From the IMG/VR virus record IMGVR_UViG_2565956714_000008, positions 1 through 17,267 of that record: a DNA stretch of 17,267 nucleotides. One strand, given 5' to 3'. This document shows positions 3,939-15,505 of the stretch, piece after piece; positions within the stretch are counted from its first letter, which is position 1; each line of letters begins with the position of its first letter. The translations under genes and the position numbers were made by a program. The DNA comes from a virus (taxonomy: Duplodnaviria; Heunggongvirae; Uroviricota; Caudoviricetes). Below the pieces are notes generated by a model. The model had not been told where the DNA came from and ran no database searches. It worked only from the letters and a program-made list of their open reading frames with translations.

Positions 3939-4688
3939 TGTCTATTCCTCAATTAATGTCTACATGGCTATTTTTAATGTTATTACTGTTTGTCACTATA
4001 AAAAAACGCTCATTTGAGACAATTACTGACATTAACTGCTTCACTTGCTACGCATGGAACTTTTAATTAAATTAGCACAGGAATGTTAAATTTAATAAAC
4101 AAAAGGTTATTTCGCTGTATGATAAAAAAAACCGTTATAATTTATTAGTGAAAATCGTTTTTCAAGTGTTAGAAATTTATATCTCAATAGCGTTGGTTAA
4201 TGAGCATAGCCACGCTCCTGTAACGCTCACAAAACTCATCTGCCTGCGGCGGGTGTTCTGGTCAGTAGTAGATGTTTAAGGCGTGGCAGAGACATTTCAT
4301 CCTTACTCTACGGCATTGTTCTACATACATTGGTTGTGGTACTCACTTATCATCAGTGAGCGAACAGAGAATAGTTCAGTGATTTGAGTAATTAACCTGA
4401 TTAAATGAAGGGGTATAATAAATGATAATACTCTGGCTTTATCGTTAATTACTTAATTCCACATGTAAGCAATTTGCCCGCTTGGCATAGCAGGCATTTT
4501 TTCCAGGTACTTTTGAATGAGTACTGATGGATAAATACATTGCAGTGGCGTGCCACGTACCAAAACACCAGCCCTCATTCGAAACCACCCACCGCACTTC
4601 TTCCTTGAAATGGCGTTAGTCATGAAATATAGACCGCCATCGAGTACCCCTTGTACCCTTAACTCTTCCTGATACGTAAATAATGATT

Positions 4689-4733
4689 TGGTGGCCCTTG
4701 CTGGACTTGAACCAGCGACCAAGCGATTATGAG
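4689..4733 (-). repeat. att core copy: 45-nt duplicate of the tRNA-Ile2 3' end (acceptor/T-arm to anticodon loop), marking the left boundary of the integrated element
   Basis: tggtggcccttgctggacttgaaccagcgaccaagcgattatgag matches 15430-15474 at 44 of 45 positions (single C/T difference); the sequence diverges immediately after, and the region upstream in tRNA orientation is not tRNA-like. Confidence 0.85.
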
Positions 4734-4842
4734 TTGGTTGATAACCCTTTACTTACAGATACTTAGCGATACTTTTCAATACCTTAGCATTTTTTAAAAC
4801 TACTGTATAAATACCTGTATATACCCCAAAATACTTCTTTAC

Positions 4843-4890
4843 GGTATCCTATAGGTATCCTGGAGCAGAACAAGCGATTTTCCAGGATAC
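4843..4890. promoter_or_regulatory. Putative integrase arm-type binding sites (GGTATCCT direct repeats plus inverted copy)
   Basis: ggtatcctataggtatcctgg at 4843-4863 and inverted copy tccaggatac at 4881-4890; a near-identical block ggtatcctataagtatcctgg occurs at 15367-15387 beside the other att core. Function inferred. Confidence 0.4.
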
Positions 4891-4914
4891 CAGATCGCTT
4901 GGTGGGGTGTATGA

Positions 4915-6336
4915 GTGAAATTATTCAGATTCTCTAAAGTAAAAATTGCAGAACTGCCAACGCCGGAACATGGACAGGTCGAATATGGTGATACGGAGGT
5001 TAACGGGCTGCGTGTCCGTGTAGGTTCGTCTGGTGTGAAAAGTTTCTGCATTTCCCGTAAGCGTAACGGAAAATTTATTCGTGCAACGCTGGGGCGTTTT
5101 CCTGATCTGAGCGTGGATAATGCCAGGGCTAAAGCTATGGAACTCCTTGGCGAAGTCGCCACAACGGGGATAAATCCGAACATAGCAAAGCGCACTAACA
5201 ACAAGGCCATGATAACGCTGAGTGAGGCGATTGACGCCTACGTAAAAAATCGTGGCCACCGCCTGAAACCCTCCACAGAAAAACAGTACCGCAGCATATT
5301 ACAGAATTATTCCGGTGACTGGATGGCCCATACCCTCGCCAGTATTTCCCGCGAACGGGTGGAACAACGGCATAAGGCCATCACTGATGGGGCTGTATGG
5401 TTCGGTGCTGATAAAACCACGTTACGGGCTGGGGTTGGTACAGGAAGCAAGGCACAGGCCGATTTATGGGCGCGTGCGCTACGTGCTGTGTGTCGGTTTG
5501 CGCATGATCATTACCGTGATGATGCGGGTAATACTCTTTTACCGGATCCGCCGACTCTGGTACTGAGCACCAAGCGCCAGTGGCACGGAACGGTAAGAAA
5601 AACGGAACGTATCCGCCTGCATGATTTTCCCCGCTGGTTTGCTGCTGTAGCTGCTGTGCGCGACCAGGGCGAACAGGAAAGGGATGATATAGCTGTTACG
5701 GTATGTGATGCCGTGGAAATGGCACTGTTTACCGGACTGAGGAAATCAGAAGTTTTTGGCCTTACGTGGGATCGCGTGAATATGGGCGGTCGCTTTTTCT
5801 GGATAGACACCACGAAAAACGGGGATCCGCTTGAACTGCCGATCACTGATACGTTGCGGAAAATGTTTCTTCGCAGGCTAAAAAACAAAGCTGCTGATGA
5901 TGTGCTGGTGTTTCCTGGCGTGAAGGGAGTGATTCAGGAGACACGGCACATCATAGACCGGATAAGCGCGGCTACCATTCCTGAGGCGAACGATGAAATG
6001 CTCTTCCCTGTCCCGTTTAAGTGGCACGACGCACGCCGGACGTTCGGAACGGTTGCTGAGCTGGTGGGCGTGGGTAATTACATCCTCAAGCGCCTGATGA
6101 ATCACCGCACTATGCGAAGTGCCGACGTAACGCAGGGGTATTTACATTTCGGTGCTGATGAACTGCTGGAGCCAGCATCACGGATAGAACGGGCAATTCT
6201 GGAACATGCCGGGCTGGTGGAGAGTAAAAAATCTATCGATGCGCAATTACTTTCCGCACTGGAGGGCATGAGTGATGATGAAAAACGTCGTTTACTATTT
6301 GCTATAGTACAAGAAAAGAATGACATATATGGGTGA
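4915..6336 (+). CDS. int: Tyrosine recombinase / integrase, P4-like with N-terminal arm-binding domain
   Basis: 473-aa ORF starting GTG 4915. The N-terminus (LPTPEHGQVEYGDTEVNGLRVRVGSSGVKSFCISRKRNGKFIRATLGRFPDLSVDNARAKAMELLGEV) fits the arm-binding domain pattern of P4-family integrases; C-terminal region has catalytic-domain signatures (LFTGLRKSEV, HDARRTFGT, TQGYLHF). Lies 180 bp inside the att repeat. Confidence 0.9.
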   Translation: MKLFRFSKVKIAELPTPEHGQVEYGDTEVNGLRVRVGSSGVKSFCISRKRNGKFIRATLGRFPDLSVDNARAKAMELLGEVATTGINPNIAKRTNNKAMITLSEAIDAYVKNRGHRLKPSTEKQYRSILQNYSGDWMAHTLASISRERVEQRHKAITDGAVWFGADKTTLRAGVGTGSKAQADLWARALRAVCRFAHDHYRDDAGNTLLPDPPTLVLSTKRQWHGTVRKTERIRLHDFPRWFAAVAAVRDQGEQERDDIAVTVCDAVEMALFTGLRKSEVFGLTWDRVNMGGRFFWIDTTKNGDPLELPITDTLRKMFLRRLKNKAADDVLVFPGVKGVIQETRHIIDRISAATIPEANDEMLFPVPFKWHDARRTFGTVAELVGVGNYILKRLMNHRTMRSADVTQGYLHFGADELLEPASRIERAILEHAGLVESKKSIDAQLLSALEGMSDDEKRRLLFAIVQEKNDIYG

Positions 6337-7045
6337 TAACAATATATCGGTCAAACAATATATTATTTATTCGGTTATGAATGATTTAATTACTGGTGGG
6401 CGAGACTCTTCAGTTTTAAACGTTCCTGTATCTTTATCCCCGAAAAACTCCACCATAGAGGCTATAAAACGCTTGATTGATGATATAAGAGATTATTTTT
6501 ATAAATCAAAGTATCCAACAAGAGAATTTCTTTTGTGTTATGGTTTAGAATTAAGAGAAATCGAGCAATATCCTATTGAATTAGCTATAAGAATGGATTC
6601 ATGTGGTTTTTTAATATTTGATAGTAAACTATCTTGTCAGGTTGTCGATACTTTAAATTCAGCAGTTGCATTGTACCATGTCGGAATGCGTAATCACGCA
6701 GACAAACTTACTAGGGTTGGTGTTGAGTTATTGCTTAATGACTTTTTTGAAGAAATTATATCGAACCATGAAAAAGATAAAAAAATAAAAGATGCTTTAT
6801 CCTTATCACAGAAAGAAAAAGCGCGCAAACCAAGAAATCATTATTACAATGAAGTTATGCACGTAATTAAACTAACATGGGAAAAGTACCCTAAAGCCAG
6901 TAAAACAGGTTTATTGAACGAGCTTTCTGTTTACTATCATGGGAAAGTAAGTAAAAACACTCTGGATAAATGGATTAAAGAATCAGGAGCACAACCACCA
7001 AGACCTGATAAATATTCTTCGTTTGAACTTGTTCACCCCCAATAG
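6320..7045 (+). CDS. Hypothetical protein, 241 aa, markedly AT-rich cargo gene; possible HTH near C-terminus
   Basis: ORF overlaps the integrase stop by 17 nt (ATG 6320; alternative ATG 6329). Base composition is visibly more AT-rich than the flanking integrase and regulator genes. No recognisable catalytic motif; C-terminal KASKTGLLNELSVYYHGKVSKNTLDKWIKE looks HTH-like. Confidence 0.55.
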   Translation: MTYMGDNNISVKQYIIYSVMNDLITGGRDSSVLNVPVSLSPKNSTIEAIKRLIDDIRDYFYKSKYPTREFLLCYGLELREIEQYPIELAIRMDSCGFLIFDSKLSCQVVDTLNSAVALYHVGMRNHADKLTRVGVELLLNDFFEEIISNHEKDKKIKDALSLSQKEKARKPRNHYYNEVMHVIKLTWEKYPKASKTGLLNELSVYYHGKVSKNTLDKWIKESGAQPPRPDKYSSFELVHPQ

Positions 7046-7073
7046 CTGGCTAGTGTATCTTAATAGCTGGCTA
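7041..7073. repeat. Two direct repeats aatagctggcta spaced 21 bp, upstream of the Xis/AlpA-like gene
   Basis: aatagctggcta at 7041-7052 and 7062-7073; a partial third copy (ctggctatt) near 7110. Possible regulator binding sites. Confidence 0.3.
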
Positions 7074-7150
7074 TTAAGGCTAAATAACTGGTAACCTCCC
7101 CACAGCAACTGGCTATTGGGCTAAAAACAAAATACCCATTGATTGATATT

Positions 7151-7184
7151 TATCACCGTTGTTACTTAGAAGTACACGGTGATA
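7151..7184. promoter_or_regulatory. Inverted repeat TATCACCGT-N16-ACGGTGATA overlapping the ribosome-binding region of the downstream HTH gene; candidate operator
   Basis: Perfect 9-bp arms at 7151-7159 and 7176-7184. The half-site TATCACCG resembles lambda-type operator half-sites, although the spacing differs from lambda operators. Confidence 0.4.
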
Positions 7185-7187
7185 GAT

Positions 7188-7397
7188 ATGAATTTAAAGA
7201 AATCTGATTTATCAACTGACCGCCTTACACGTGCTGAAGCTGCTGCCTACCTTGGCGTTAACAATCAAACGCTGGCGAACTGGGCCTGTACTGGCAAGGT
7301 AAAAATCCCTTTCCATAAGCTGGGGCGCAAAGTGCTGTATATGCGCACTGATCTCGATGCTTATCTTGCATCCACTCGCAGAACGCAGACGGTGTAA
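7188..7397 (+). CDS. Xis/AlpA-superfamily helix-turn-helix DNA-binding protein (excisionase-like or induction regulator)
   Basis: 69 aa from ATG 7188 (track start GTG 7179). LTRAEAAAYLGVNNQTLANWACTGKVKIPFHKLGRKVLYMRTDLDAYL fits the excisionase-family HTH pattern (L..EAA.YLGVS..TL..W...G.IP..K.GR...Y...DLDAYL). Confidence 0.75.
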   Translation: MNLKKSDLSTDRLTRAEAAAYLGVNNQTLANWACTGKVKIPFHKLGRKVLYMRTDLDAYLASTRRTQTV

Positions 7398-7744
7398 GGG
7401 GGAGTGATGGCACATAAAACAAAGGCGACCGCAGAGGGCCGCCAGTGGCATAACACTAAACTTGAGCATATCCAGAATACCAGGTTGTTGGCTGGTGGGC
7501 AATGCTATCAGTCTGGCTCGATTCGCTGCCATGCCTGCAATGAGCGTATTTTCCTAGAATACTCTTTAAGGTACTTCTCAAGGATAAACGCACATGGTGC
7601 GAATCTCTCCGGTTCATGTTCGTTTACCGCATTTTTGCGTTGTTTTTTCTTGGATGAGGATAATTTCTTTAATGATTTGTCAGTCATCGTAGATACCTGT
7701 AACCCTGTGCGCCACAGTTCACCGCACCACGGCGCTGGTGATGG

Positions 7745-7870
7745 TTACTCCTGCTCTTTGGCCTTGCGCCGCTGGCGGCGTTTGATCTCATCAAGGATTT
7801 TTCTTGGTAAGAAGCCTGCTGGTTTATTCTCTGGTAGAGAAAGTTTGTTATCGGTCTGCTTTTCAGTCAT
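7745..7870 (-). CDS. Small basic protein, 41 aa, translationally coupled to the upstream RHH gene
   Basis: ATG at 7870 lies 3 nt after the RHH stop codon (ATGtaTGA arrangement); encodes MTEKQTDNKLSLPENKPAGFLPRKILDEIKRRQRRKAKEQE. Below the ORF-track length cut-off; a weak call. Confidence 0.25.
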   Translation of the reverse strand: MTEKQTDNKLSLPENKPAGFLPRKILDEIKRRQRRKAKEQE

Positions 7871-7873
7871 ACA

Positions 7874-8065
7874 TCAGCCTTTAGGTTCAATGCCGCGTCG
7901 CTTTAGTTCGGCACGAGCTAATTCTTTAAACCAATTGCCGAGGGTTAGGCCATCGGCGGTTGCTGCCTCGTTTACTTGCTGGCGTAGTTCTTTGCTAATT
8001 CGTATCTGGAATGTCGGCGACCATCCCTCGCCGCGTGGTGATTTATCCCGCTTTAATGTTGACAT
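7874..8065 (-). CDS. Ribbon-helix-helix (Arc/CopG-like) DNA-binding protein, candidate repressor
   Basis: 63 aa; ...FQIRISKELRQQVNEAATADGLTLGNWFKELARAEL has the beta-strand/helix/helix layout of RHH proteins. Its start codon is embedded in a perfect palindromic operator (8064-8109). Confidence 0.6.
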   Translation of the reverse strand: MSTLKRDKSPRGEGWSPTFQIRISKELRQQVNEAATADGLTLGNWFKELARAELKRRGIEPKG

Positions 8066-8109
8066 GTACGTACGTAACTCCTATTATCATCAATATTACG
8101 TACGTACAT
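8064..8109. promoter_or_regulatory. Palindromic operator: two copies of the self-complementary 10-mer TACGTACGTA within perfect 14-bp inverted arms, in the divergent promoter region
   Basis: atgtacgtacgtaa (8064-8077) and ttacgtacgtacat (8096-8109) are exact reverse complements, separated by 18 bp that include the RHH gene's AGGAG ribosome-binding site. Confidence 0.55.
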
Positions 8110-8133
8110 TAACAGTAAGTGCAACAAAAAACA

Positions 8134-8168
8134 AAGCCCCGCAAGTGTCGTTACCACTCGCAGGGCTT
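8134..8168 (-). terminator. Hairpin with 12 of 14 paired bases, followed by a U-run on the minus strand only
   Basis: aagccccgcaagtg / cactcgcagggctt with loop tcgttac; A-tract 8121-8133 gives UGUUUUUUGUU after the hairpin on the minus strand. On the plus strand it would sit in the 5' UTR of the replication operon. Function uncertain. Confidence 0.3.
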
Positions 8169-8204
8169 CTAACCACCAACGATAACGAGAGTATCGAGGT
8201 AGCT

Positions 8205-8408
8205 ATGAGAAATCATACCATACACCCGCAAGGGCGGGATTCGCACAACCTGAATAAATTCGCCTGGCGTTTTATCGCCCTGAGCGCCGCAAAACCGCGT
8301 GTGATTACCATCGTGGCCACCAGCGAACAGGAAGCACGCCAGCACTCCCCGGCTGGCTGCGTGATGGTATTCGCCGCCCGTATTCGTCAGGGGGTGTGCC
8401 ATGCCTGA
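8205..8408 (+). CDS. Hypothetical protein, 67 aa, first gene of the plus-strand operon leading to the replication gene
   Basis: ATG 8205 with GAGGT 5 nt upstream; codon usage on this strand is typical of E. coli coding DNA (ctg, gcc, acc, atc, cgt, ccg), unlike the overlapping antisense ORFs; stop overlaps the next start (8401). Confidence 0.45.
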   Translation: MRNHTIHPQGRDSHNLNKFAWRFIALSAAKPRVITIVATSEQEARQHSPAGCVMVFAARIRQGVCHA

Positions 8409-8721
8409 TATGTCAAATTACCAGTACCTGATTAATCCGCATTTTAACTGTGAGCATGATATTGCTAAAAAGGTTTATTCCGCTGCGGATGGGGCGACTG
8501 ACAATATATCAATGGCCGTTGCGTCAATTGGTAGCCTGATGTGGCATGCGTCAGAAAATGAGGACTATGACGAAAAGGCCATGCGCATTGATATGGGTAA
8601 TATCGGTTTGTTACTGGCAATGCTTGGACATTTTGATATTTCGTTACGGTGCACCATTGAAAATGCCACAGATGCATTAAATGCCATAAAGAAAGCGAAT
8701 ACTGATTCAAATCGGGGATAA
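8401..8721 (+). CDS. Hypothetical protein, 106 aa
   Basis: ATG 8401 with GGGGG 6 nt upstream; overlaps the preceding stop; no recognisable domain. Confidence 0.5.
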   Translation: MPDMSNYQYLINPHFNCEHDIAKKVYSAADGATDNISMAVASIGSLMWHASENEDYDEKAMRIDMGNIGLLLAMLGHFDISLRCTIENATDALNAIKKANTDSNRG

Positions 8722-8727
8722 ATAATC

Positions 8728-9027
8728 ATGAGAACGTATTTATCTGGCTTGACTGCCAGCGGTTATGCACATCCCAAAATTATCCCCGGCGCTATTTATC
8801 TGGATAAGAACGGTAACAGAGTAACGGTAAAAGAACTGATGTTTGACCGTGTGTATTTTATTCGTGATGGCTATTCATTTCATAGTTCGCTGAACGTGGA
8901 GATCTTTATTAGCAGATTCAGGCGGGAAATCCCGCTTTCCAGAAATAACCATGTGTCACGTGTGAATGTGGATAAAAAACTACAGGAACTGAAAAACATG
9001 ATTGCCGCGTGGAGAGAGCAGAAATGA
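8728..9027 (+). CDS. Hypothetical protein, 99 aa
   Basis: ATG 8728 (GGGGA 9 nt upstream); its stop overlaps the replication-gene start (ATGA at 9024-9027), indicating translational coupling. Confidence 0.5.
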   Translation: MRTYLSGLTASGYAHPKIIPGAIYLDKNGNRVTVKELMFDRVYFIRDGYSFHSSLNVEIFISRFRREIPLSRNNHVSRVNVDKKLQELKNMIAAWREQK

Positions 9028-10841
9028 AAAAAGCGCCAAATTTAAAACACCAGTCGCGTGACAAAATGACGGAAGTCATCATTTTTGCGGGTAGTGATGC
9101 GTGGGCACATGCGAAGCAGTGGCAGGAACAGGACGGGCGACTGGCTGGCGATAACGTGCCTCCTGTCTGGCTTGGAGAGCAACAACTTGCCGAACTGGAC
9201 AACCTGCAAATCGTACCGGACGGACGCTATCGCGTGCGTCTCTATCAGGCGGGGTTATTGCGTCCGGGGCTTGTTAATACCATCGGGCAGAAACTGGCAG
9301 CGGCAGGTGTCAGGGATGCTGATTATTATCCTGAAGGAATGCACAGCCAGAAACGGGAGAACTGGCGCGAATATCTGGAACGTGAACGGGCAGAGCAGGC
9401 GGAAAAGAAAAAGGTAGTTGAACTGCCTGTAAAGAAAAAAGAGCGGGTAAAAGACGATAACGCTTCATCACTGGCGCTTAACCAGATGGGAGCAAGTCAA
9501 CGCGGCGAAGTTCTCCTGGCACATTATGGCGGTGAATTGGCGATTCATGCTGACTCTGACACTGTTCACCATTACAACGGCGTTGTATGGGAGCCAGTAC
9601 AGGATAAAGAATTACAGCGAGCTATGGCACAGATTTTCATTGATGCGGAGATCAGCTATTCGCAGAACGCCATTAAATCGGCGGTCGATACCATGAAGTT
9701 AAGTTTGCCTGTAATGGGGAATACAGCCCGTAACCTGATTGGATTCAGTAACGGGGTATTTGATACCAGAACAGGTAATTTTCGGGGGCATAACAAAAAC
9801 GACTGGTTGTTAATTGCCAGTGAATTACCTTTCAGCCCACCAGCAGAGGGGGAAACACTGGCAACACATGCGCCGAATTTCTGGAAGTGGTTACGCCGTT
9901 CGGTGGCTGAGAATGACCGCAAGGCAGATCGCGTACTGGCGGCATTATTCATGGTGCTGGCGAACCGGTACGACTGGCAGTTATTCATTGAGGTAACAGG
10001 GCCGGGGGGAAGTGGTAAAAGCGTGATGGCGGAGATTTGCACCATGCTGGCGGGTAAGGCTAATACAGTATCAGCAAGCATGAAGGCGCTGGAAGATGCA
10101 AGGGAACGTGCGTTAGTGGTTGGCTTTTCGCTGATTATCATGCCGGATATGACCCGCTACGCTGGTGATGGGGCAGGGATTAAGGCCATTACAGGCGGTG
10201 ACAAGGTGGCAATTGACCCGAAACACAAAGCCCCCTACTCAACGCGTATTCCGGCAGTAGTGCTGGCGGTTAACAATAACGCCATGTCATTCAGTGACCG
10301 CAGCGGGGGGATCTCACGTCGTCGGGTGATATTCAATTTTTCGGAAGTTGTACCGGAGAACGAACGCGATCCGATGCTGGCGGAAAAAATAGAAGGTGAG
10401 CTGGCGGTAGTGATTCGCCATCTGCTTACACGGTTTGCTGACCAGGACGAAGCCAGACGCCTGTTATATGAGCAGCAGAAATCTGAAGAAGCACTGGCGA
10501 TAAAGCGAGAGGGGGATTCGCTGGTGGACTTCTGCGGCTATCTCATGGCGTCGGTAATGTGTGATGGCCTGTTAGTGGGTAATGCTGAAATTGTGCCATT
10601 CAGCCCGCGCAGGTATCTCTATCATGCCTATCTGGCTTATATGAGGGCTCATGGGTTTGGTAAACCTGTAACACTGACGCGCTTCGGTAAAGATATGCCT
10701 GGGGCAATGGCGGAATATGGCAGGGAGTATATAAAACGGAAAACGAAGCACGGTTTACGTTCAAACGTGACACTGACGGAGGAATCAGAAGACTGGATGC
10801 CATCATGTGTATCAGTCACTAATGACGATAGCAAAAATTAA
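9024..10841 (+). CDS. Replication initiator: primase/SF3-helicase-like P-loop NTPase (Pri-Rep type)
   Basis: 605 aa from ATG 9024 (GGAGAGAG 5 nt upstream; track start GTG 9009). Walker A VTGPGGSGKSVMAEIC and a downstream hydrophobic-acidic segment (LIIMPDM) as candidate Walker B, in the C-terminal half; immediately followed by an iteron cluster as in PICI/SaPI and P4-type replication modules. The N-terminal half has no motif I can assign. Confidence 0.8.
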   Translation: MKKAPNLKHQSRDKMTEVIIFAGSDAWAHAKQWQEQDGRLAGDNVPPVWLGEQQLAELDNLQIVPDGRYRVRLYQAGLLRPGLVNTIGQKLAAAGVRDADYYPEGMHSQKRENWREYLERERAEQAEKKKVVELPVKKKERVKDDNASSLALNQMGASQRGEVLLAHYGGELAIHADSDTVHHYNGVVWEPVQDKELQRAMAQIFIDAEISYSQNAIKSAVDTMKLSLPVMGNTARNLIGFSNGVFDTRTGNFRGHNKNDWLLIASELPFSPPAEGETLATHAPNFWKWLRRSVAENDRKADRVLAALFMVLANRYDWQLFIEVTGPGGSGKSVMAEICTMLAGKANTVSASMKALEDARERALVVGFSLIIMPDMTRYAGDGAGIKAITGGDKVAIDPKHKAPYSTRIPAVVLAVNNNAMSFSDRSGGISRRRVIFNFSEVVPENERDPMLAEKIEGELAVVIRHLLTRFADQDEARRLLYEQQKSEEALAIKREGDSLVDFCGYLMASVMCDGLLVGNAEIVPFSPRRYLYHAYLAYMRAHGFGKPVTLTRFGKDMPGAMAEYGREYIKRKTKHGLRSNVTLTEESEDWMPSCVSVTNDDSKN

Positions 10842-10853
10842 ACTTATGGAATA

Positions 10854-11085
10854 ACTGTTCACCACTGTTCACCCTGTCATAAATATCTTTTATATCAGTA
10901 TATTATAGGGTGAACAGTTATTTATGAACTATTCACCAAACTATTCACTGTTCACCTTTTTGGTTGTTTATTGAGCTTCAAGGGTGAACAGTGGTGAACA
11001 GTTGGTGAATAGTTTTTGTAAAACTGTTCACCCCTTAACAGTATGAATTTAAATGGAAAATATCAAAAGGTGAACAGGTGAAGGG
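10854..11085. repeat. Iteron-type replication origin: about 11 copies of ACTGTTCACC / GGTGAACAGT in both orientations within AT-rich spacers
   Basis: tgttcacc at 10856-10863, 10866-10873, 10949-10956, 11025-11032; variant tattcacc at 10930-10937; inverted ggtgaaca at 10909-10916, 10983-10990, 10993-11000, 11069-11076; variants ggtgaata at 11004-11011 and ggtgaagg at 11078-11085. Several copies are tandem with ~10-bp period. Confidence 0.7.
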
Positions 11086-11128
11086 TTAAAATACAAAAAT
11101 TTTAATTTATTGCTCTGAGATAAAGCCT

Positions 11129-11374
11129 ATGACAGCGAAGCGCACAAAAAAAACACAATCGCACGCCCTTGATTTGACGGAACACTGGTTAAGGGGGTCG
11201 ATAAAAATCATCGACCGCAACGCCGGGGAAGGATACGCGAAAGCACATCCCGAACTGATAAGCGCATTCATGACCACGGCGGCGGCAAATTTTGCCACGC
11301 TAACAGAGCGGGAGATTGCCGAAGCGGAACAGGTAACAACCATCAACGTTAAAACCGGAGAGCAGACAGCATGA
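11129..11374 (+). CDS. Hypothetical protein, 81 aa
   Basis: ATG 11129 with only a weak ribosome-binding site; stop overlaps the SSB start (ATGA at 11371-11374). No recognisable domain. Confidence 0.45.
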   Translation: MTAKRTKKTQSHALDLTEHWLRGSIKIIDRNAGEGYAKAHPELISAFMTTAAANFATLTEREIAEAEQVTTINVKTGEQTA

Positions 11375-11793
11375 CAGCACAGATAGCGGCTTACGGACGG
11401 CTGGTGGCTGACCCGCAGTTAAAGACCACTAGCAAGGGTACACAAATGACGATGGCTAGTATGGCGGTCCCCCTTCCGTGCAGCCAGGCAGATGACGGAA
11501 CGGCGACGATGTGGTTATCCGTCCTGGCGTTTGGCAGACAGGCCGACGCACTGGCAAAACACCACAAAGGCGAACTGGTGAGCGTGGCGGGTAACATGCA
11601 GGTAAGCCAGTGGACAGGCCAGAACGGCGAAACGCGGCAGGGCTGGCAGGTTATCGCAGACAGTGTAATCAGTGCCAGAACGGCGCGACCGGGCGGCAAA
11701 AAAGGTCAACAGGGCCAGGCTACTGACGCACTGAACAGGGCAAAACAACAGTCGGGGAATGATGATCCGTACGGCGATAATATACCGTTTTAA
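11371..11793 (+). CDS. ssb: Single-stranded DNA-binding protein (SSB) with acidic C-terminal tip
   Basis: 140 aa; OB-fold region WLSVLAFGRQADALAKHHKGELVSVAGNMQVSQWTGQNGETRQGWQVIAD parallels E. coli SSB ([51 protein letters not shown]); Gly/Gln-rich linker and C-terminal DDPYGDNIPF resembling the SSB tail DDDIPF. Confidence 0.8.
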   Translation: MTAQIAAYGRLVADPQLKTTSKGTQMTMASMAVPLPCSQADDGTATMWLSVLAFGRQADALAKHHKGELVSVAGNMQVSQWTGQNGETRQGWQVIADSVISARTARPGGKKGQQGQATDALNRAKQQSGNDDPYGDNIPF

Positions 11794-11803
11794 ATTCTGC
11801 AAA

Positions 11804-11839
11804 TAAAAAAATGCCGGAAGAAAATAGATTTTCCGGCAT
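11804..11839 (-). terminator. Stable hairpin (9-bp stem ATGCCGGAA/TTCCGGCAT) between ssb and the capsid gene, forming a canonical intrinsic terminator only in the minus orientation
   Basis: Stem 11811-11819 and 11831-11839, loop 11 nt; A-run 11804-11810 gives a U-run after the hairpin on the minus strand; no U-run follows it on the plus strand. Confidence 0.35.
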
Positions 11840-12010
11840 GCTACATAAATCCCGACCAAAGGAAGTAAATACATTAACACGAATTATCAGCACTGAAGTT
11901 GTCACGGCAGATTTTATACAACATTGCACTTGGTTGCATGTATTCGCATAGCAAATATCGGTGATAGCATATATCCACAATTATTTTTAATGAATGCAAA
12001 GAGGATGCGT

Positions 12011-13051
12011 ATGGTTGATTTATATTCGCCTGCCCAGCTTGTGCAGGTGGCTAATGCTGAAGATGTGCAAAAAAAATTAAATGTGTTGTTTACCAGTTTG
12101 TTTTTCACTCGCTCGGTAATGTTTGAATCGAGAGACATTATTCTTGATACGATCGACGATCCAAATATCCCGATCGCGGCGTTTTGCTCTCCTATGGTGG
12201 GCAGTAAAGTTTCACGAGATGAGGGATACGAATCAAAAACAATTCGCCCTGGCTATATGAAACCGAAAAGCAGCATTGATCCAAATAAGTTAGCTGTGCG
12301 CCCTGCTGGTGTGTCACCTGAGCAATACAATGCTTTTGGGGCGCGTAATATTAAAGTTAAACAGGCGATTGTAAATCAGGCTAAAGCTATTCGTACACGT
12401 ATTGAATGGCTTGCTGTTCAGGCAATCACAACGGGGAAAAATATCATTGAGGGCGATGGTATTGAACGTTATGAGCTGGACTGGAATATAAAACCACAAA
12501 ATATCATCACTCAGTCTGGCGGTACTGAGTGGTCAGGTAAGGATAAAGAAACTTTTGATCCAAATGATGATATTGAGAGCTACGCAGAATTTAGTGAGGG
12601 CGTCACTAATATCATCATTATGGGCGGTAATGTATGGAAGAAATACCGTTCATTCAGAGCGATAAAAGAGGCTCTGGATACCCGTCGTGGTTCTAATTCC
12701 GAACTGGAAACGGCCCTTAAAGACCTTGGTGATTCGGTGAGTTTTAAAGGGTATATGGGCGATGTTGCGATTGTTGTTTACAGCGGGCGTTATACCGACG
12801 AGGACGGAACTGAAAAATATTTCCTTGATCCTGATTTGATGGTGCTTGGCAATACGGCTCTCCAGGGGATTGTCGCTTATGGCGGTATTCAGGATCCGGA
12901 GCTAATCCGGATGGGGCTGACTAAAGCCGAACTTGCACCGAAAAACTATATTGTGCCTGGTGATCCGGCTATTGAATATGTGCAGACACATTCAGCACCA
13001 CAGCCAATACCGGCCCGTATCAATCGTTTTGTTACCGTTCGCATTGGCTAA
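12011..13051 (+). CDS. Major capsid protein, lambda gpE family
   Basis: 346 aa from ATG 12011 (AAAGAGGA, 5-nt spacer; track start 11924 is upstream in frame). Long colinear matches to lambda gpE as I recall it: ITQSGGTEWSGKDKETFDPNDDIESY vs ITQSGGTEWSKRDKSTYDPTDDIEAY; DTRRGSNSELETALKDLG vs DTRRGSNSELETAVKDLG; GDVAIVVYSGRY vs GDVAIVVYSGQY; MVLGNT in both. Confidence 0.9.
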   Translation: MVDLYSPAQLVQVANAEDVQKKLNVLFTSLFFTRSVMFESRDIILDTIDDPNIPIAAFCSPMVGSKVSRDEGYESKTIRPGYMKPKSSIDPNKLAVRPAGVSPEQYNAFGARNIKVKQAIVNQAKAIRTRIEWLAVQAITTGKNIIEGDGIERYELDWNIKPQNIITQSGGTEWSGKDKETFDPNDDIESYAEFSEGVTNIIIMGGNVWKKYRSFRAIKEALDTRRGSNSELETALKDLGDSVSFKGYMGDVAIVVYSGRYTDEDGTEKYFLDPDLMVLGNTALQGIVAYGGIQDPELIRMGLTKAELAPKNYIVPGDPAIEYVQTHSAPQPIPARINRFVTVRIG

Positions 13052-13061
13052 GGGGGGAGCA

Positions 13062-13403
13062 ATGGCTACTCATTACACTGAACTCATGGCTGGCACTGAA
13101 GCACTGGTTACTACGCTGGGGATATTTTCAGCTAATAAAGGGGTAATTCCTGCATTTACGCCACTGATGCAGGAAGATACAACAGGTGCACTGGTGGTAT
13201 GGGATGGTACGAGTGCAGGTAAAGCTGTTTATGTTTCCGCTGTACAACTCGATACAGCGAAAAAAACACAGGCTCAGGTCTATAAGACAGGTGTCTTAAA
13301 TGTTGATGCTCTTAACTGGCCTGAGTCAGTAAAAGAACTGTCAGTAAAGGTTGCAGCGTTTGTTGGCTCAGGTATTTCTGTTCAGCCGCTGGCTCGTGTG
13401 TAA
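13062..13403 (+). CDS. Head decoration protein, lambda gpD family
   Basis: 113 aa from ATG 13062 (GGGGGGAG upstream). IPAFTPLMQEDTTGALVVWDGTSAGKAV...KTGVLNVDALNWPE...AAFVGSGISV parallels lambda gpD [28 protein letters not shown]...KSGTFRYEDVLWPE...TAFAGTAISIV. Confidence 0.85.
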   Translation: MATHYTELMAGTEALVTTLGIFSANKGVIPAFTPLMQEDTTGALVVWDGTSAGKAVYVSAVQLDTAKKTQAQVYKTGVLNVDALNWPESVKELSVKVAAFVGSGISVQPLARV

Positions 13404-13414
13404 AGGGGGATACA

Positions 13415-13798
13415 ATGCAGAATCATTACAATGACCTTAAGCCAATTGCCGAAATGATGTATCCGGATCCAGCAGTAGAGGAATTAAAGGCTATTGCTGA
13501 CAAAATGCGTTTAAGCGAGCGTCTTGTTGATATGAATCAGGTGATGGAACTTACAACCCTGAGTCGTCGTACACTGCTAAACCTTGAAGCACGTGGAGAG
13601 TTCCCCGAACGCGTGCAGGTTACGGAAGGGCGTAAGGCCTGGTATTTAAGCGAAGTGATCGACTGGATAAACAATATTCCGCGCGCTTCTGAATATTGCC
13701 GCGTACCTGTCCCAAAAAAGCCAGATGCGGCGCTATGCCTCAAGATTGATCGTGTACGCCGCAATGCACGGGATGGTCGCTATAAGCTGATTGGTTGA
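13415..13798 (+). CDS. AlpA-family HTH protein with ~40-aa N-terminal extension, immediately upstream of cos
   Basis: 127 aa, ATG 13415 with GGGGGA 5 nt upstream. MELTTLSRRTLLNLEARGEFPERVQVTEGRKAWYLSEVIDWINN fits the AlpA pattern (T.LSR.T...L...G.FP.PV.LG.R...W...EV..WI). Confidence 0.7.
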   Translation: MQNHYNDLKPIAEMMYPDPAVEELKAIADKMRLSERLVDMNQVMELTTLSRRTLLNLEARGEFPERVQVTEGRKAWYLSEVIDWINNIPRASEYCRVPVPKKPDAALCLKIDRVRRNARDGRYKLIG

Positions 13799-13822
13799 TG
13801 AAATTAGGGCCCGTTCTGGCTG

Positions 13823-14020
13823 GCGGGTCCTTTCCGGCGATCCGGTAGGCTACGGGGCGTCAGGCGCGCGGGTTTTCGCTTTTTATGAAAATTTTCCGGT
13901 TTAAGGCGTTTCCGTTCTTCTTCGCCGTAACTTTATGTTTTTATTTGAAACACCCCCTGAAAAGAAAGGAAACGACAGGTGCTGAAAACGGGCTTTTTGG
14001 CCTCTGTCGTTTCCTTTCTC
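13823..14020 (+). other. Lambda-type cos site: cosQ-like segment, cosN-equivalent 12-mer (13855-13866, divergent) and cosB with R3, I1, R2 and R1 elements
   Basis: From 13867 onward the sequence (cgcgggttttcgctttttatgaaaattttccggtttaaggcgtttccgttcttcttcg ... ctgaaaagaaaggaaacgacaggtgctgaaaacgggctttttggcctctgtcgtttcctttctc) is nearly identical to my recollection of lambda left-end bases 13-170, including R3 cgtttccgttct (13907-13918), R2 agaaaggaaacg (13963-13974) and R1 cgtttcctttct (14008-14019). Upstream gcgggtcctttccggcgatccggtaggctacg parallels the lambda right end ACGGGTCCTTTCCGGTGATCCGACAGGTTACG. The 12-mer is GGGCGTCAGGCG here versus GGGCGGCGACCT in lambda. Confidence 0.8.
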
Positions 14021-14339
14021 GTTTTTGAGCAAAACTGGCTCTATACATGCTTAGAAATGCTAGGGTTTTTGCGTAATACAGGTAGTGCAGGAGATTCACC
14101 AGGGGATTATTCATATATGCTGGTAGGCGCTATGTGTTAGTGGTGAGCGAAAAACAATCAAAACCGACACCGTAAAAATAAAAATCACAAATTATCAATT
14201 AGTTGTGCCAGTGGTGATGGCGAATGAAATTTCAAAAACTAGCCTTTTTCCGCGATGCTTTCGCCCCGTGGCAGGCCACCCCACCAGGAGGACCCGCTAC
14301 AATTACGGTATCAACCTCATCACTATGGAGGCCATGACC

Positions 14340-14624
14340 ATGACCGAGACCGAAGCGCTCGAAATAATCCGCAGTATTACCGGAATCAGCCAGGCAACAG
14401 GCAAACAGGAGGCCACGCAGCCGGACAGCGTCACCGCTGAAAATTACGCGCGTGTGGTGGCTGAGGTGATGCGCCGTGACGGTATTGAGCTTAACGGCGT
14501 GGATATGCGCAACATACGAACCAGAGTCCTTGAGTTGCTGGCATACCGTCGCCGTTCTCAACAACGGAGGGAGAGCGCGAAAAATACTTACCAGTGGAAG
14601 AAGCCGGAACGACTGCGGTGGTAA
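14340..14624 (+). CDS. Hypothetical protein, 95 aa, in the position lambda Nu1 occupies relative to cosB but unrelated to Nu1
   Basis: Best-supported start ATG 14340 (GGAGG with 8-nt spacer); in-frame alternatives at 14205 (GTG), 14217, 14325 and 14334. Arg-rich C-terminus; no recognisable domain. Confidence 0.45.
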   Translation: MTETEALEIIRSITGISQATGKQEATQPDSVTAENYARVVAEVMRRDGIELNGVDMRNIRTRVLELLAYRRRSQQRRESAKNTYQWKKPERLRW

Positions 14625-14642
14625 CTTGCTGATATTCCCGAT

Positions 14643-14890
14643 AACGCAAAATTGCGTTGGCTGGTGGGTGAGTTGCAGATCTGCAACTCGACCATGAAAC
14701 TACGGAAACTACCCGTAGTTTGGGTAGTAAGAGTAACACCCAGATTTTGGGGCTTACTCGCGATACCCAAATAAAGGGTATCGGTGGAAGAAATATCGTT
14801 TCTCATATGTGAGTACCGAGGGCGGAATTCCGCCTTCGGTTACTTATTGTGCTCATGCACAGGGAGAGGCGGGTACAAATCTCTGTACCC
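14643..14890. repeat. Cluster of six inverted repeats/palindromes in a ~250-bp non-coding stretch
   Basis: AACGCAA-aa-TTGCGTT (14643-14658); perfect 20-bp palindrome GAGTTGCAGATCTGCAACTC (14670-14689); AAACTACGG/CCGTAGTTT (14697-14721) overlapping ACTACCC/GGGTAGT (14708-14728); GATACCC/GGGTATC (14762-14782); GGCGGAATTCCGCC (14821-14834); GGGTACA/TGTACCC (14871-14890). Confidence 0.45.
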
Positions 14891-15033
14891 TGACGTCTTC
14901 CGGACTGCCAGCCCCATCGTTTTTTTACGCCCGCGAAAAATAAAAATTGTTTGTATGTGAGTATTGTAGCCAGCAAAAGCTCTTTCTTTAGTGGCTTATT
15001 GTTTCTAATAGATTTTGGGAGGTAGAAATGGGA

Positions 15034-15053
15034 GGCCCAGCGAAAGCTGGGCC
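15034..15053 (-). terminator. GC hairpin with GAAA tetraloop (GGCCCAGC-gaaa-GCTGGGCC) just downstream of the small minus-strand ORF
   Basis: 8-bp perfect stem; on the minus strand it follows the stop at 15072 and is followed by a C/U-rich tract (UCCCAUUUCU), so not a textbook U-run. Confidence 0.3.
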
Positions 15054-15071
15054 GAGCTTGTTACGCTGTCA

Positions 15072-15215
15072 TTACTTCAGCATGATAACTAAAGCTATAC
15101 ATACTAGCACTACGGCTATTGGGCATAGACCTAAATTGCCAAGTGCTGCGATTAAACCTGTAACGGCAATCACACGTGCAGACAGCAGGTCTGAGCCCTT
15201 TCTTAAAGTATCCAT
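15072..15215 (-). CDS. Small hydrophobic protein, 47 aa, with a predicted C-terminal transmembrane helix
   Basis: ATG at 15215 preceded by GGAGG with 5-nt spacer; encodes MDTLRKGSDLLSARVIAVTGLIAALGNLGLCPIAVVLVCIALVIMLK. Below the ORF-track length cut-off. It is antisense to the 100-aa plus-strand ORF 15028-15330, which also has a strong ribosome-binding site, so the call is uncertain. Confidence 0.35.
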   Translation of the reverse strand: MDTLRKGSDLLSARVIAVTGLIAALGNLGLCPIAVVLVCIALVIMLK

Positions 15216-15366
15216 TGATACCTCCGTCAGGGTTTTTGCCGGTCTCTTGGAGAGTTGGGGGCAAAAGTTCAGACCCGTAGCACTTTCTTGTTCGCAGGTG
15301 AACGGCTGCTACGACCCAACTGTTCTGTAGGCATGAGCCAATTCTTACTTGTTAATACTTCTCAGA

Positions 15367-15387
15367 GGTATCCTATAAGTATCCTGG
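15367..15387. promoter_or_regulatory. Putative integrase arm-type sites (second copy of the GGTATCCT repeat block)
   Basis: ggtatcctataagtatcctgg, 43 bp from the tRNA/att core; near-identical to 4843-4863 at the other end of the element. Confidence 0.4.
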
Positions 15388-15429
15388 TAAAGCAAGATAG
15401 TTTGGATACATCTGTAATTCATTGAAATC

Positions 15430-15505
15430 TGGTGGCCCCTGCTGGACTTGAACCAGCGACCAAGCGATTATGAGTCGCCTGCTCTAACCACTGAGCTAAA
15501 GGGCC
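15430..15505 (-). tRNA. ileY: tRNA-Ile2 (anticodon CAU, lysidine-type; anticodon-only tools would call tRNA-Met)
   Basis: Reverse complement of 15430-15505 is a 76-nt tRNA: GGCCCTTTAGCTCAGTGGTTAGAGCAGGCGACTCATAATCGCTTGGTCGCTGGTTCAAGTCCAGCAGGGGCCACCA, with 7-bp acceptor stem (one G-U pair), anticodon loop CUCAUAA and encoded CCA. It matches my memory of E. coli ileX/ileY and differs from elongator and initiator tRNA-Met. ileY chosen from the flanking gene order. Confidence 0.9.

What the first reader, a model, noticed from the sequence alone, without database searches (positions are those of the whole stretch)
4689..15474. About 10.7-kb tRNA-Ile2-integrated element with satellite-like gene content (integration, regulation, replication, minimal capsid module, cos) and no terminase/portal/tail/lysis genes
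Seen directly: 45-nt direct repeats of the tRNA 3' end at both ends, with matching arm-type repeat blocks inside each. Between them lie an integrase, Xis/AlpA-type HTH genes, an RHH regulator with palindromic operators, a Pri-Rep-like NTPase followed by iterons, an SSB, gpE-like and gpD-like capsid genes and a cos site. The element is far too small for an autonomous lambdoid phage and lacks every packaging-motor, portal, protease, scaffold, tail and lysis gene, yet its ORFs are intact and tightly coupled. That is the signature of a helper-dependent phage satellite. The integrase sits at the end distal to the intact tRNA and is transcribed inward. Relative to my recollection of E. coli K-12, where ypjC and ileY are adjacent, this is an insertion.
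Basis: partly seen in the sequence, partly recalled or inferred. Interest (0 to 1): 0.85.

Follow-up and report, generated by a model that had tools for sequence, protein, structure and literature searches.

The report
Lambda-dependent phage satellite (PICI) at ileY
This is a 10.7-kb phage satellite of the well-described Gram-negative PICI family (EcCICFT073 / 11capE type), inserted in the ileY tRNA gene. It carries a near-copy of the phage lambda packaging site, so it is a correct call but not a new kind of element.

Summary
A 10,741-bp insertion is bounded by 49-nt direct repeats of the 3' end of tRNA-Ile2 (ileY). The uninterrupted junction is present in 2,882 complete E. coli genomes. The element encodes an inward-facing integrase, an excisionase-type HTH, a small RHH regulator with palindromic operators, an Icd-like protein, DUF4222, a D5/P4-type primase-helicase followed by 11 iterons, SSB, gpE-like and gpD-like capsid proteins, an AlpA-family protein and a cos site. 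It has no terminase, portal, protease, tail or lysis gene.

The satellite reading is supported, but the kind is known. Gene order and most proteins match the prototype Gram-negative PICI EcCICFT073. The segment from primase to cos is 94% identical in DNA to the published helper-embedded PICI 11capE. By SatelliteFinder's criteria it has four of the five PICI core components, lacking only terS.

Its one distinctive feature is the packaging cassette. Relatives carry their own cosB plus Rpp or a Nu1-like TerS. This element instead has lambda-type cosB (R3, R2, R1) and neither protein. Lambdoid phages with the identical cosN exist. It is therefore probably packaged directly by helper terminase, as roughly 43-kb tetramers. 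11capE is a precedent for this cassette.

Verdict: new member of a known kind; modest interest.

The parts
4686..4734 (.). attL: displaced 3' fragment of tRNA-Ile2 (49-nt direct repeat, 2 C>T differences from the native sequence)
4843..4863 (+). Arm-type site GGTATCCTATAGGTATCCTGG (tandem GGTATCCT half-sites)
   Evidence: 2 matches in the window, 0 expected by chance
4915..6336 (+). Tyrosine integrase (473 aa, GTG start), transcribed inward; Arm-DNA-bind_3 plus Phage_integrase domains
   Evidence: same start as the RefSeq annotation in KC-Dl-1
6320..7045 (+). orf241: orphan all-alpha protein in the 5' accessory position between int and the HTH gene
   Evidence: No Pfam, PHROG, PADLOC or NCBIfam hit; only 13 homologous clusters, all unnamed or called 'hypothetical protein'; model pLDDT 80, no PDB fold match
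7041..7193 (.). Candidate regulatory repeats upstream of the HTH gene: AATAGCTGGCTA-type repeats at 7041-7117, and an 18-nt inverted repeat (7142-7159 / 7176-7193) reaching the start codon
   Evidence: function is inferred
7188..7397 (+). HTH_17 / excisionase-family protein in the position of the PICI alpA gene (ORF opens at GTG 7179; ATG 7188 matches the RefSeq start)
   Evidence: TIGR01764 excise, E = 1e-9
7508..7687 (-). 59-aa leftward ORF (phrog_21027, unknown function); corresponds to a leftward hypothetical gene in EcCICFT073
7874..8065 (-). 63-aa Arc/YlcI-YnfO-like ribbon-helix-helix regulator, transcribed leftward
   Evidence: phrog_228 Arc-like repressor; NF041551
8059..8109 (+). Rightward promoter-like site TTGACA-17-TATTAT (11 of 12 matches), overlapped by two perfect palindromic sites (8064-8077, 8096-8109; core TACGTACGTA)
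   Evidence: relative L002 has the same layout with a different palindrome, TGGTACGTACCA
8205..8408 (+). Icd-like protein (67 aa), first gene of the rightward operon
   Evidence: NF033153, E = 9e-18; 88% identical to the EcCICFT073 homologue
8401..8721 (+). orf106 (phrog_15327, unknown function)
8728..9027 (+). DUF4222 protein
9024..10841 (+). Pri-Rep primase-helicase (D5_N, DUF5906, Pox_D5; P4-family primase C-terminus)
   Evidence: 49% identical to EcCICFT073 Pri
10850..11090 (.). Replication origin: 11 copies of the iteron GGTGAACAGT in both orientations, in AT-rich DNA
   Evidence: same position as the experimentally mapped EcCICFT073 ori (PMC6092414)
11129..11374 (+). orf81 (phrog_1231); 86% identical to the EcCICFT073 homologue
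11371..11793 (+). Single-stranded DNA-binding protein
12011..13051 (+). Major capsid protein homologue (gpE family, 346 aa)
   Evidence: 42% identical to lambda gpE over its full length; 55% to EcCICFT073 c1499; dN/dS 0.08-0.09
13062..13403 (+). Head decoration protein homologue (gpD family, 113 aa)
   Evidence: dN/dS 0.10
13415..13798 (+). 127-aa AlpA-family winged-HTH protein immediately upstream of cos
   Evidence: PDB 8c3t AlpA, E = 2e-10; 33% identical to EcCICFT073 AlpA; not Rpp-like
13824..14020 (+). cos site: cosQ-like block 13824-13846; cosN with predicted 12-nt end GGGCGTCAGGCG at 13855-13866; lambda-type cosB with R3 at 13907-13922, R2 at 13963-13978 and R1 at 14004-14019
   Evidence: similarity to phage ends just after R1, where Nu1 would begin
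14340..14624 (+). orf94 (phrog_1561); 69% identical to the last gene of EcCICFT073
15072..15215 (-). 47-aa hydrophobic ORF with a GGAGG ribosome-binding site, in the 3' accessory region (function unknown; membership of the element uncertain)
15367..15387 (+). Arm-type site GGTATCCTATAAGTATCCTGG
15427..15475 (.). attR: direct repeat forming the 3' part of the intact tRNA
15430..15505 (-). Intact tRNA-Ile2 (anticodon CAT; ileY), the integration target

Best explanation
The element is a Gram-negative phage-inducible chromosomal island (PICI) of the EcCICFT073 / 11capE lineage, integrated by its own tyrosine integrase into the 3' end of ileY.

Proposed life cycle; every step rests on homology with the tested elements, none on direct observation:
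1. In the resting state the small leftward RHH protein probably binds the two TACGTACGTA palindromes that overlap the rightward promoter. This keeps the operon from the Icd-like gene to the late genes silent.
2. When a lambdoid helper is induced or infects, a helper function turns on the HTH/AlpA-type activators.
3. Int, probably with the HTH_17 protein as directionality factor, excises the element by recombination between the 49-nt repeats.
4. The Pri-Rep primase-helicase fires the iteron origin just downstream of its gene, with help from the element's own SSB, and concatemers form.
5. The element's cos has a cosN found unchanged in natural lambdoid phages, and a cosB whose R3, R2 and R1 sites are almost identical to lambda's. 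The helper's own Nu1/gpA terminase should therefore recognise and cut it directly. No satellite TerS or Rpp adaptor would be needed.
6. Four units (42,964 bp) fill one full-size lambdoid head.
7. Helper tails and lysis functions complete the transfer, and Int reinserts the element at either tRNA-Ile2 gene.

The gpE-like and gpD-like proteins are conserved and under purifying selection, but their role is unknown. In EcCICFT073 their deletion changed neither transfer nor interference.
For: Exact insertion with an intact empty site elsewhere.

Synteny and protein identity with EcCICFT073. For that element, helper dependence on lambda and phi80, AlpA activation, pri-ori function, cos function and packaging as phage-sized DNA were shown experimentally (PMC6092414).

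93.7% DNA identity over window 9418-14027 with 11capE, including the same cosN and lambda-type cosB. Precise excision of 11capE after mitomycin C was shown in PMC10111431.

The four-zone layout (Integration, dynamic zone, Replication, Late) with an inward-facing int matches the published GN-PICI definition. The element has four of the five SatelliteFinder PICI core components and none of the forbidden ones.

cos is 91% identical to lambda over cosQ-cosN-cosB. The exact 26-nt cosN string occurs in 13 IMG/VR contigs. In three of them (L007, L012, L019) it is followed by Nu1 98-99% identical to lambda's, and a fourth (L018) has the same phage-type cosB but ends before Nu1. These are candidate helpers.

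Neither Rpp nor TerS is present.

The operator palindrome differs between relatives in step with the RHH cassette.

dN/dS is 0.08-0.10 for MCP and Dec.
Against: No experiment exists on this copy, and the helper in its own genome is unknown because only 17 kb are visible.

The exact terS-less cassette is rare: it was found in 1 of 5,426 complete E. coli genomes. It could therefore be a recent and possibly disadvantageous deletion.

Without Rpp or TerS the element has no recognisable way to out-compete or interfere with its helper.

The authors of 11capE could not recover particles.

The RHH repressor role and the division of labour between the two HTH proteins are inferences. The EcCICFT073-like AlpA homologue here is the late-zone 127-aa protein, not the gene next to int.
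Confidence: 0.85

Rival explanations
1. The element is a decaying, no longer mobilisable PICI. Loss of the terS (or rpp) packaging gene has left an island that can at best excise and replicate, but is not efficiently packaged.
For: The exact cassette is present in only 1 of 5,426 complete genomes, whereas the terS-bearing form accounts for most of the other 78 genomes that cover at least 80% of the query. A related PICI (L014) carries a Nu1 copy with an internal stop, and 11capE keeps only the first ~11 Nu1 codons, which indicates ongoing decay. No particles were recovered for 11capE.
Against: All 14 conserved ORFs are intact and full length against relatives. Both att repeats and both arm-type sites are present. 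cosQ, cosN and all three R sites are preserved precisely up to the point where they stop being needed. The near-identical copy in KC-Dl-1 sits at a different tRNA-Ile2 gene (ileX), so this cassette type has moved between sites. Elements carrying only the helper's cos are efficiently packaged in other systems (SaPIbov5; cited in PMC6092414).
Confidence: 0.1
2. The element is a partly capsid-forming satellite. Its gpE-like and gpD-like proteins would assemble, on the helper's portal, scaffold and protease, into a satellite-specific and possibly smaller shell. That shell would favour the 10.7-kb genome and exclude the helper, as the capsid homologue Ccm does for SaPIbov5.
For: Both proteins are full length and align end to end with lambda gpE and gpD. 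They form a lineage distinct from every phage, with at most 42% identity to any phage MCP. They are under strong purifying selection. This copy has no other recognisable interference gene. 21 of 29 reference GN-PICIs keep a capsid gene.
Against: In EcCICFT073, deleting either gene changed neither interference nor transfer, and all packaged DNA was phage-sized (PMC6092414). No size-determining scaffold, portal or protease is encoded here.
Confidence: 0.1
3. The element is a P4-like satellite of P2-type phages.
For: It has a P4-family integrase fold with Arm-DNA-bind_3, a P4-family primase C-terminal domain and an AlpA/Vis-type HTH. It is about 11 kb and integrates at a tRNA.
Against: No Psu, Sid, Delta or Epsilon homologue appeared in any scan. 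The cos site is lambda-type, not P2/P4-type. The capsid genes are of the lambda E/D type. Gene order is that of EcCICFT073.
Confidence: 0.02
4. The element is a rearranged fragment of a lambdoid prophage.
For: It has a lambda-like cos and E/D-type genes. Relatives are found inside prophages.
Against: The insertion is exact, with its own int, att sites and arm-type sites. The same ~10-11-kb unit occurs between chromosomal genes at ileX. Copies inside prophages are nested insertions that split the prophage E gene and carry their own integrase (PMC10111431). The MCP is only 42% identical to any phage MCP.
Confidence: 0.02

Closest known systems
EcCICFT073 (prototype Gram-negative PICI; Fillol-Salom et al. 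2018, ISME J, PMC6092414; 2019, Mol Cell, PMC6739421)
   Same: Size is about 11 kb. The order is the same: int, HTH, leftward YlcI/YnfO-type gene, Icd-like, small ORFs, DUF4222, Pri, iteron ori, orf81, SSB, MCP, Dec, cos, terminal orf94. Protein identities range from 36% (DUF4222) to 88%. The cosQ/cosN region lies at the same position. Transcription is unidirectional and rightward, with int facing inward.
   Different: The integrase is unrelated (23% identity) and the target differs (ycfD-phoQ versus tRNA-Ile2). EcCICFT073 has two cosN sites, a PICI-specific cosB and RppA (c1503), which retargets helper TerS. This element has one cos, lambda-type cosB and no Rpp. c1502 and PerC are absent here. 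Here the AlpA-family homologue sits in the late zone.
11capE (helper-embedded PICI of E. coli NRG857c; Tommasini, Mageeney and Williams 2023, PMC10111431)
   Same: 93.7% DNA identity across the 3' part of pri, ori, orf81, SSB, MCP, Dec, the 127-aa HTH gene and cos. The cosN (GGGCGTCAGGCG) is identical and cosB is lambda-type. No functional terS is present. The authors noted a 258-bp cos shared at 90% with the helper.
   Different: 11capE has a different integrase and integrates inside the helper prophage's capsid gene E. It retains the first ~11 codons of Nu1. It carries DUF262 and HEPN genes at its 3' end instead of orf94.
terS-bearing tRNA-Ile2 PICIs (for example in APEC E18055, locus L002)
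   Same: Same integrase, att sites and tRNA-Ile2 targeting. About 97% DNA identity over int and from the Icd-like gene to cosN.
   Different: A 693-bp cassette (their own cosB plus a 180-aa TerS that is 35% identical to Nu1) occupies the place of the window's 219 bp (lambda cosB plus about 90 bp of unrelated DNA). These would score as SatelliteFinder Type A; the window element would score as Type B.
SaPIbov5 (cos-packaged staphylococcal PICI)
   Same: It relies on a copy of the helper's cos site rather than its own TerS, and it carries a capsid-protein homologue (as described in PMC6092414).
   Different: It is unrelated in sequence and host. Its capsid homologue Ccm is known to make small capsids, and no such role is shown for the E. 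coli PICI capsid genes.
Capsid-forming PICIs (cf-PICIs)
   Same: The integration, regulation and replication modules are related, and they encode a major capsid protein.
   Different: cf-PICIs encode a full head module (portal, protease, head-tail adaptor and connector, TerS/TerL, HNH). None of these is present here.

Membership tests
Gram-negative PICI (Fillol-Salom 2018; SatelliteFinder PICI model, de Sousa 2023) | Own integrase at one end, facing inward, with a specific att site | tested here: met
Gram-negative PICI (Fillol-Salom 2018; SatelliteFinder PICI model, de Sousa 2023) | AlpA/MerR-type regulator module | tested here: met
   An HTH_17/excisionase-type gene lies next to int, and a Phage_AlpA-family protein at 13415-13798 is 33% identical to EcCICFT073 AlpA. 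Which of the two is the activator was not tested.
Gram-negative PICI (Fillol-Salom 2018; SatelliteFinder PICI model, de Sousa 2023) | Primase-replicase followed immediately by an iteron origin | tested here: met
   layout as in PMC6092414 Fig. 2
Gram-negative PICI (Fillol-Salom 2018; SatelliteFinder PICI model, de Sousa 2023) | Capsid-morphogenesis or capsid homologue gene | tested here: met
   Phage_cap_E and HDPD hits; homologous to c1499 and c1500
Gram-negative PICI (Fillol-Salom 2018; SatelliteFinder PICI model, de Sousa 2023) | Small terminase (terS) or Rpp packaging-redirection protein | tested here: not met
   No hit by Pfam, PHROG, PDB or tblastn. The component is optional in the published model: elements with four of five components are 'Type B' and make up 74% of PICIs detected.
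Gram-negative PICI (Fillol-Salom 2018; SatelliteFinder PICI model, de Sousa 2023) | Carries a helper-type cos (or pac) site | tested here: met
Gram-negative PICI (Fillol-Salom 2018; SatelliteFinder PICI model, de Sousa 2023) | Absence of tail, holin, portal and head-tail connector genes; size about 8-12 kb | tested here: met
   10,741 bp
Gram-negative PICI (Fillol-Salom 2018; SatelliteFinder PICI model, de Sousa 2023) | Helper-phage-dependent induction, packaging and high-frequency transfer | not testable with these tools
   Requires induction and transduction experiments
Gram-negative PICI (Fillol-Salom 2018; SatelliteFinder PICI model, de Sousa 2023) | att site not used by prophages | not tested
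   Only PICI-type occupants of tRNA-Ile2 were seen among the hits examined, but no systematic survey was made
P4-like satellites | psu-delta-sid operon, epsilon, and a P2-type cos | tested here: not met
   No such domains were found; the cos is lambda-type
Capsid-forming PICI | Portal, prohead protease, head-tail adaptor and connector, TerL/TerS, HNH | tested here: not met
Rpp-type cos PICI (Fillol-Salom 2019) | Rpp protein plus a PICI-specific cosB lacking lambda R elements | tested here: not met
   RppA finds RppC in the PDB, but nothing in the window resembles it. cosB contains lambda R3, R2 and R1.

The most novel reading that the evidence does not exclude
In this Rpp-less and TerS-less lineage, the conserved gpE-like and gpD-like pair may be the satellite's real weapon. 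The two proteins would assemble on helper portal, scaffold and protease into a satellite-specific shell, possibly smaller. By volume scaling, a T=4 lambda-type shell would hold about 21 kb, which is two units. That would make this a 'half capsid-forming' intermediate between classical PICIs and cf-PICIs. It would also explain why most Gram-negative PICIs keep capsid genes that showed no phenotype in EcCICFT073.
Probability: 0.1. Interest if true: 0.6.

Novelty: new member of a known kind. Interest (0 to 1): 0.25.

Why it matters
As a discovery it matters little. E. coli PICIs of this architecture have been known since 2018, thousands have been catalogued, and a near-identical replication and late module was published as 11capE.

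Its value is as a clean natural example of how modular the family is:
- The same replication and late block is joined to a tRNA-Ile2 integrase here and to a prophage-gene-targeting integrase in 11capE.
- Three alternative packaging solutions are exchanged at the same breakpoint next to cosN: Rpp with its own cosB, its own TerS with its own cosB, or plain helper cosB.
- The series from a lambda-like Nu1 with an internal stop (L014), to an 11-codon stump (11capE), to nothing (this window) suggests repeated capture of the helper's cos-Nu1 segment followed by loss of the redundant Nu1.

The element is also a convenient test bed for two open questions: what the PICI capsid and decoration genes do, and whether a satellite with no packaging-redirection protein interferes with its helper at all.

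Tried and rejected
- Rfam was run on the whole window at gathering thresholds, and on 7300-8500 at E <= 1. I was looking for the C4/isrK-type immunity RNAs reported in some PICIs. Only the tRNA was found.
- PADLOC was run on nine small or unknown proteins. There were no credible defence hits.
- I searched for Rpp or TerS. The 127-aa HTH protein matches only AlpA (8c3t) in the PDB and not RppC, although RppA finds RppC easily. tblastn of RppA, lambda Nu1, a PICI TerS and c1502 against the window gave only chance-level hits.
- orf94 has no match in the PDB.
- For orf241 I ran a homologue search (13 clusters, no names beyond 'hypothetical protein', no Pfam), an AlphaFold model (pLDDT 80, all-alpha) and a Foldseek search of the PDB (nothing below E = 0.99). 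It remains unassigned.
- A literature search for PDB code 8C3T returned only irrelevant papers.
- I considered whether the two substitutions in the left tRNA fragment are the 'tRNA damage' reported for PICIs. They are not deletions. One lies outside the tRNA and the other turns a U-G pair into U-A, so I rejected this.
- I did not try to find a helper prophage in KC-Dl-1, the one complete genome with the same cassette, because the tools list only the best place per record.
- The P4-like, cf-PICI and prophage-fragment readings were rejected on gene content, cos type and the exact boundaries.

Full report
**Observation**

ARAGORN and Rfam find one tRNA, with anticodon CAT, at 15430-15505 on the minus strand. 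RefSeq annotates the same gene as tRNA-Ile in other genomes. It is therefore the lysidine-modified tRNA-Ile2 gene ileY, and the flanks fit that locus: ypjA/B/C-type genes (AIDA, DUF5508, DUF5507) and a ygaQ-like gene.

A 49-nt direct repeat (4686-4734 and 15427-15475, 2 mismatches) brackets 10,741 bp. I joined the left flank to the right repeat to make a synthetic empty site. It covered at least 80% of the query in one place in 2,882 complete E. coli genomes, and full-length single-piece matches reached 99.8-99.9% identity. The insertion and its boundaries are therefore exact.

A 21-nt arm-type site, GGTATCCTATARGTATCCTGG, occurs once inside each end and nowhere else, against 0 expected by chance.

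**Gene content**

Pfam, PHROGs and NCBIfam, together with the RefSeq annotation of close relatives, give the following order:
- an inward-facing tyrosine integrase;
- an orphan 241-aa protein;
- an HTH_17/excisionase-type protein;
- three small leftward ORFs, the last of them a 63-aa Arc/YlcI-like RHH;
- a rightward operon: Icd-like, orf106, DUF4222, a D5/P4-type primase-helicase, orf81, SSB, a gpE-family major capsid protein, a gpD-family decoration protein, a 127-aa AlpA-family protein, a cos site and orf94.

Eleven copies of GGTGAACAGT lie immediately after the primase gene.

A promoter-like site that matches the consensus at 11 of 12 positions (8059-8087) is overlapped by two perfect palindromes. 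A relative has the same layout with a different palindrome next to a different RHH allele. This co-variation supports a repressor-operator pair.

No terminase, portal, protease, scaffold, tail or lysis function is present.

**What it is**

Megablast against 5,426 complete E. coli genomes found one near-identical copy, in KC-Dl-1, with 91% coverage at 98.6% identity. It also found many copies with 60-80% coverage, annotated with the same gene names plus, in most, a 'terminase small subunit'. The examined relatives sit at the other tRNA-Ile2 gene, ileX, between nfeF and mug, as discrete islands of about 10-11 kb.

The literature then identified the family. EcCICFT073, the prototype Gram-negative PICI, is described as encoding a putative capsid protein (c1499) and a head decoration protein (c1500) (PMC6092414). 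I fetched that island and compared proteins. The gene order is the same. Identities are 88% (Icd-like), 86% (orf81), 71% (SSB), 69% (orf94), 55% (MCP), 54% (Dec), 49% (Pri) and 36% (DUF4222). The integrase is unrelated.

Tommasini et al. (PMC10111431) describe the general four-zone GN-PICI layout with int facing inward. They report capsid genes in 21 of 29 reference PICIs and PICIs at tRNA-Ile2. They also describe the helper-embedded PICI 11capE, which lacks terS and shares its cos with its helper.

I located 11capE in NRG857c. It is 93.7% identical to window 9418-14027, with the same cosN and cosB.

SatelliteFinder defines five PICI core components: int, regulator, pri-rep, capsid and terS. 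The window element has four of them and none of the forbidden components, which corresponds to 'Type B'.

**The packaging cassette**

Alignment with lambda shows a cosQ-like block. It also shows a cosN whose predicted 12-nt end is GGGCGTCAGGCG, where lambda has GGGCGGCGACCT. The cosB has R3, R2 and R1 almost identical to lambda's. Similarity stops just after R1, where Nu1 begins in phages.

Against the terS-bearing relative L002, window 13900-14118 (219 bp) replaces 693 bp that contain a different cosB and a 180-aa TerS 35% identical to Nu1. In EcCICFT073 the same position holds a PICI-specific cosB and rppA. PMC6739421 shows that Rpp retargets helper TerS to that cosB. There are thus three packaging solutions, swapped at one breakpoint beside cosN.

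The window has neither Rpp nor TerS. Its exact cassette occurs in only one complete genome.

A scan of IMG/VR for the exact 26-nt cosN found 13 contigs:
- four are lambdoid phages with phage-type cosB; in three of them (L007, L012, L019) Nu1 98-99% identical to lambda's follows, and the fourth contig (L018) ends before Nu1. These are candidate helpers;
- seven are PICIs with their own terS;
- two are PICIs with phage-type cosB followed by a lambda-like Nu1. In L014 that Nu1 carries an internal stop. L017 runs off its contig soon after the Nu1 start.

11capE keeps only the first ~11 Nu1 codons. I infer capture of the helper's cos-Nu1 segment, followed by stepwise loss of the redundant Nu1.

**Mechanism**

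The mechanism is inferred by homology with tested elements. A helper function activates the HTH/AlpA regulators. Int excises the element. Pri-Rep replicates it from the iteron origin. Helper Nu1/gpA terminase acts directly on the lambda-type cos. Four units (42,964 bp) fill a full-size lambdoid head, as shown for EcCICFT073, whose packaged DNA was phage-sized.

The capsid and decoration homologues are only 42% identical to their nearest phage counterparts. They are nevertheless under strong purifying selection, with dN/dS of 0.08-0.10. Their role remains unknown, and their deletion had no phenotype in EcCICFT073.

**Rivals**

- A decaying, non-mobilisable island is possible, because the cassette is rare. 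It is disfavoured by intact ORFs, intact att, arm and cos sites, and the presence of the same cassette type at two different tRNA-Ile2 genes.
- A capsid-remodelling role for MCP and Dec is not excluded, and it is the most novel reading left.
- The P4-like, cf-PICI and prophage-fragment readings fail on gene content, cos type and boundaries.

**Verdict**

The element is a new member of a well-described family, not a new kind. Interest is modest, at 0.25. What interest it has lies in the natural series of packaging-cassette variants and the unresolved function of the PICI capsid genes.

Noticed in passing
window 6320-7045: orf241 lies between int and the HTH gene. PICIs are reported to carry immune systems at their 5' and 3' ends (PMC11364771). 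It is an orphan all-alpha protein with no Pfam, PHROG, PADLOC or NCBIfam hit, only 13 homologous clusters, and no PDB fold match. Its N-terminal part (window 6249-6813) differs from the allele in the near-identical KC-Dl-1 copy. It is a candidate accessory or defence gene.
   Followed up: partly
window 15072-15215 (minus strand): A 47-aa strongly hydrophobic ORF (MDTLRKGSDLLSARVIAVTGLIAALGNLGLCPIAVVLVCIALVIMLK) has a GGAGG ribosome-binding site 5 nt upstream. It lies in the otherwise unannotated 800 bp between orf94 and attR. It could be a small membrane protein or a type I toxin-like peptide. It has no family hit.
   Followed up: no
window 7779-8137 versus L001 8116-8394: The segment holding the N-terminal part of the RHH gene, the rightward promoter and the palindromic operators is replaced by unrelated sequence in the otherwise 99.5% identical KC-Dl-1 copy. 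The relative L002 has a different palindrome (TGGTACGTACCA) in the same layout. This looks like exchangeable 'immunity' cassettes.
   Followed up: partly
L014 (IMG/VR 2778261447_000006) about 3691-4224; L021 13278-13472: Related PICIs show intermediate stages of Nu1 loss. L014 has a lambda-like Nu1 (72% identical to lambda's) with an internal stop codon, and its C-terminal half diverges from lambda's. 11capE has a 64-aa ORF that begins with the first ~11 Nu1 codons fused to unrelated sequence.
   Followed up: partly
window 14023-14105: The ~90 bp that follow cosB R1 are unrelated to phage or PICI sequence. They are 83-88% similar to an intergenic stretch upstream of PAAR and S-type pyocin genes in an unrelated E. 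coli island (H125, locus L020).
   Followed up: partly
window 4686-4734: The left tRNA fragment differs from the native sequence by two C>T changes. One lies 1 nt beyond the CCA end. The other changes acceptor-stem G67 to A, turning the U6-G67 pair into U-A. This is not the deletion-type 'tRNA damage' reported for some PICIs.
   Followed up: partly
window 7041-7193: AATAGCTGGCTA-type direct repeats (7041-7117) and an 18-nt inverted repeat (7142-7159 / 7176-7193) reach the start of the HTH_17 gene. This is a candidate site for helper-dependent activation or autoregulation.
   Followed up: no
window 13415-13798 versus 7188-7397: The protein most similar to EcCICFT073 AlpA (33% identity, E = 1e-8) is the 127-aa late-zone protein just upstream of cos. 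The HTH gene next to int is excisionase-type (HTH_17) and shows no BLAST similarity to EcCICFT073 AlpA. The regulatory wiring may therefore differ from the prototype.
   Followed up: no
L021 13536-15252 (11capE, NRG857c): 11capE carries DUF262 and HEPN-domain genes on the opposite strand at its 3' end, in place of orf94. This is probably a defence cassette in the 3' accessory position.
   Followed up: no
window 8133-8169: A 15-bp GC-rich hairpin lies in the leader between the rightward promoter and the Icd-like start codon. Its fold z-score is -2.1, and it is scored as terminator-like on the minus strand. It matches no Rfam family.
   Followed up: partly
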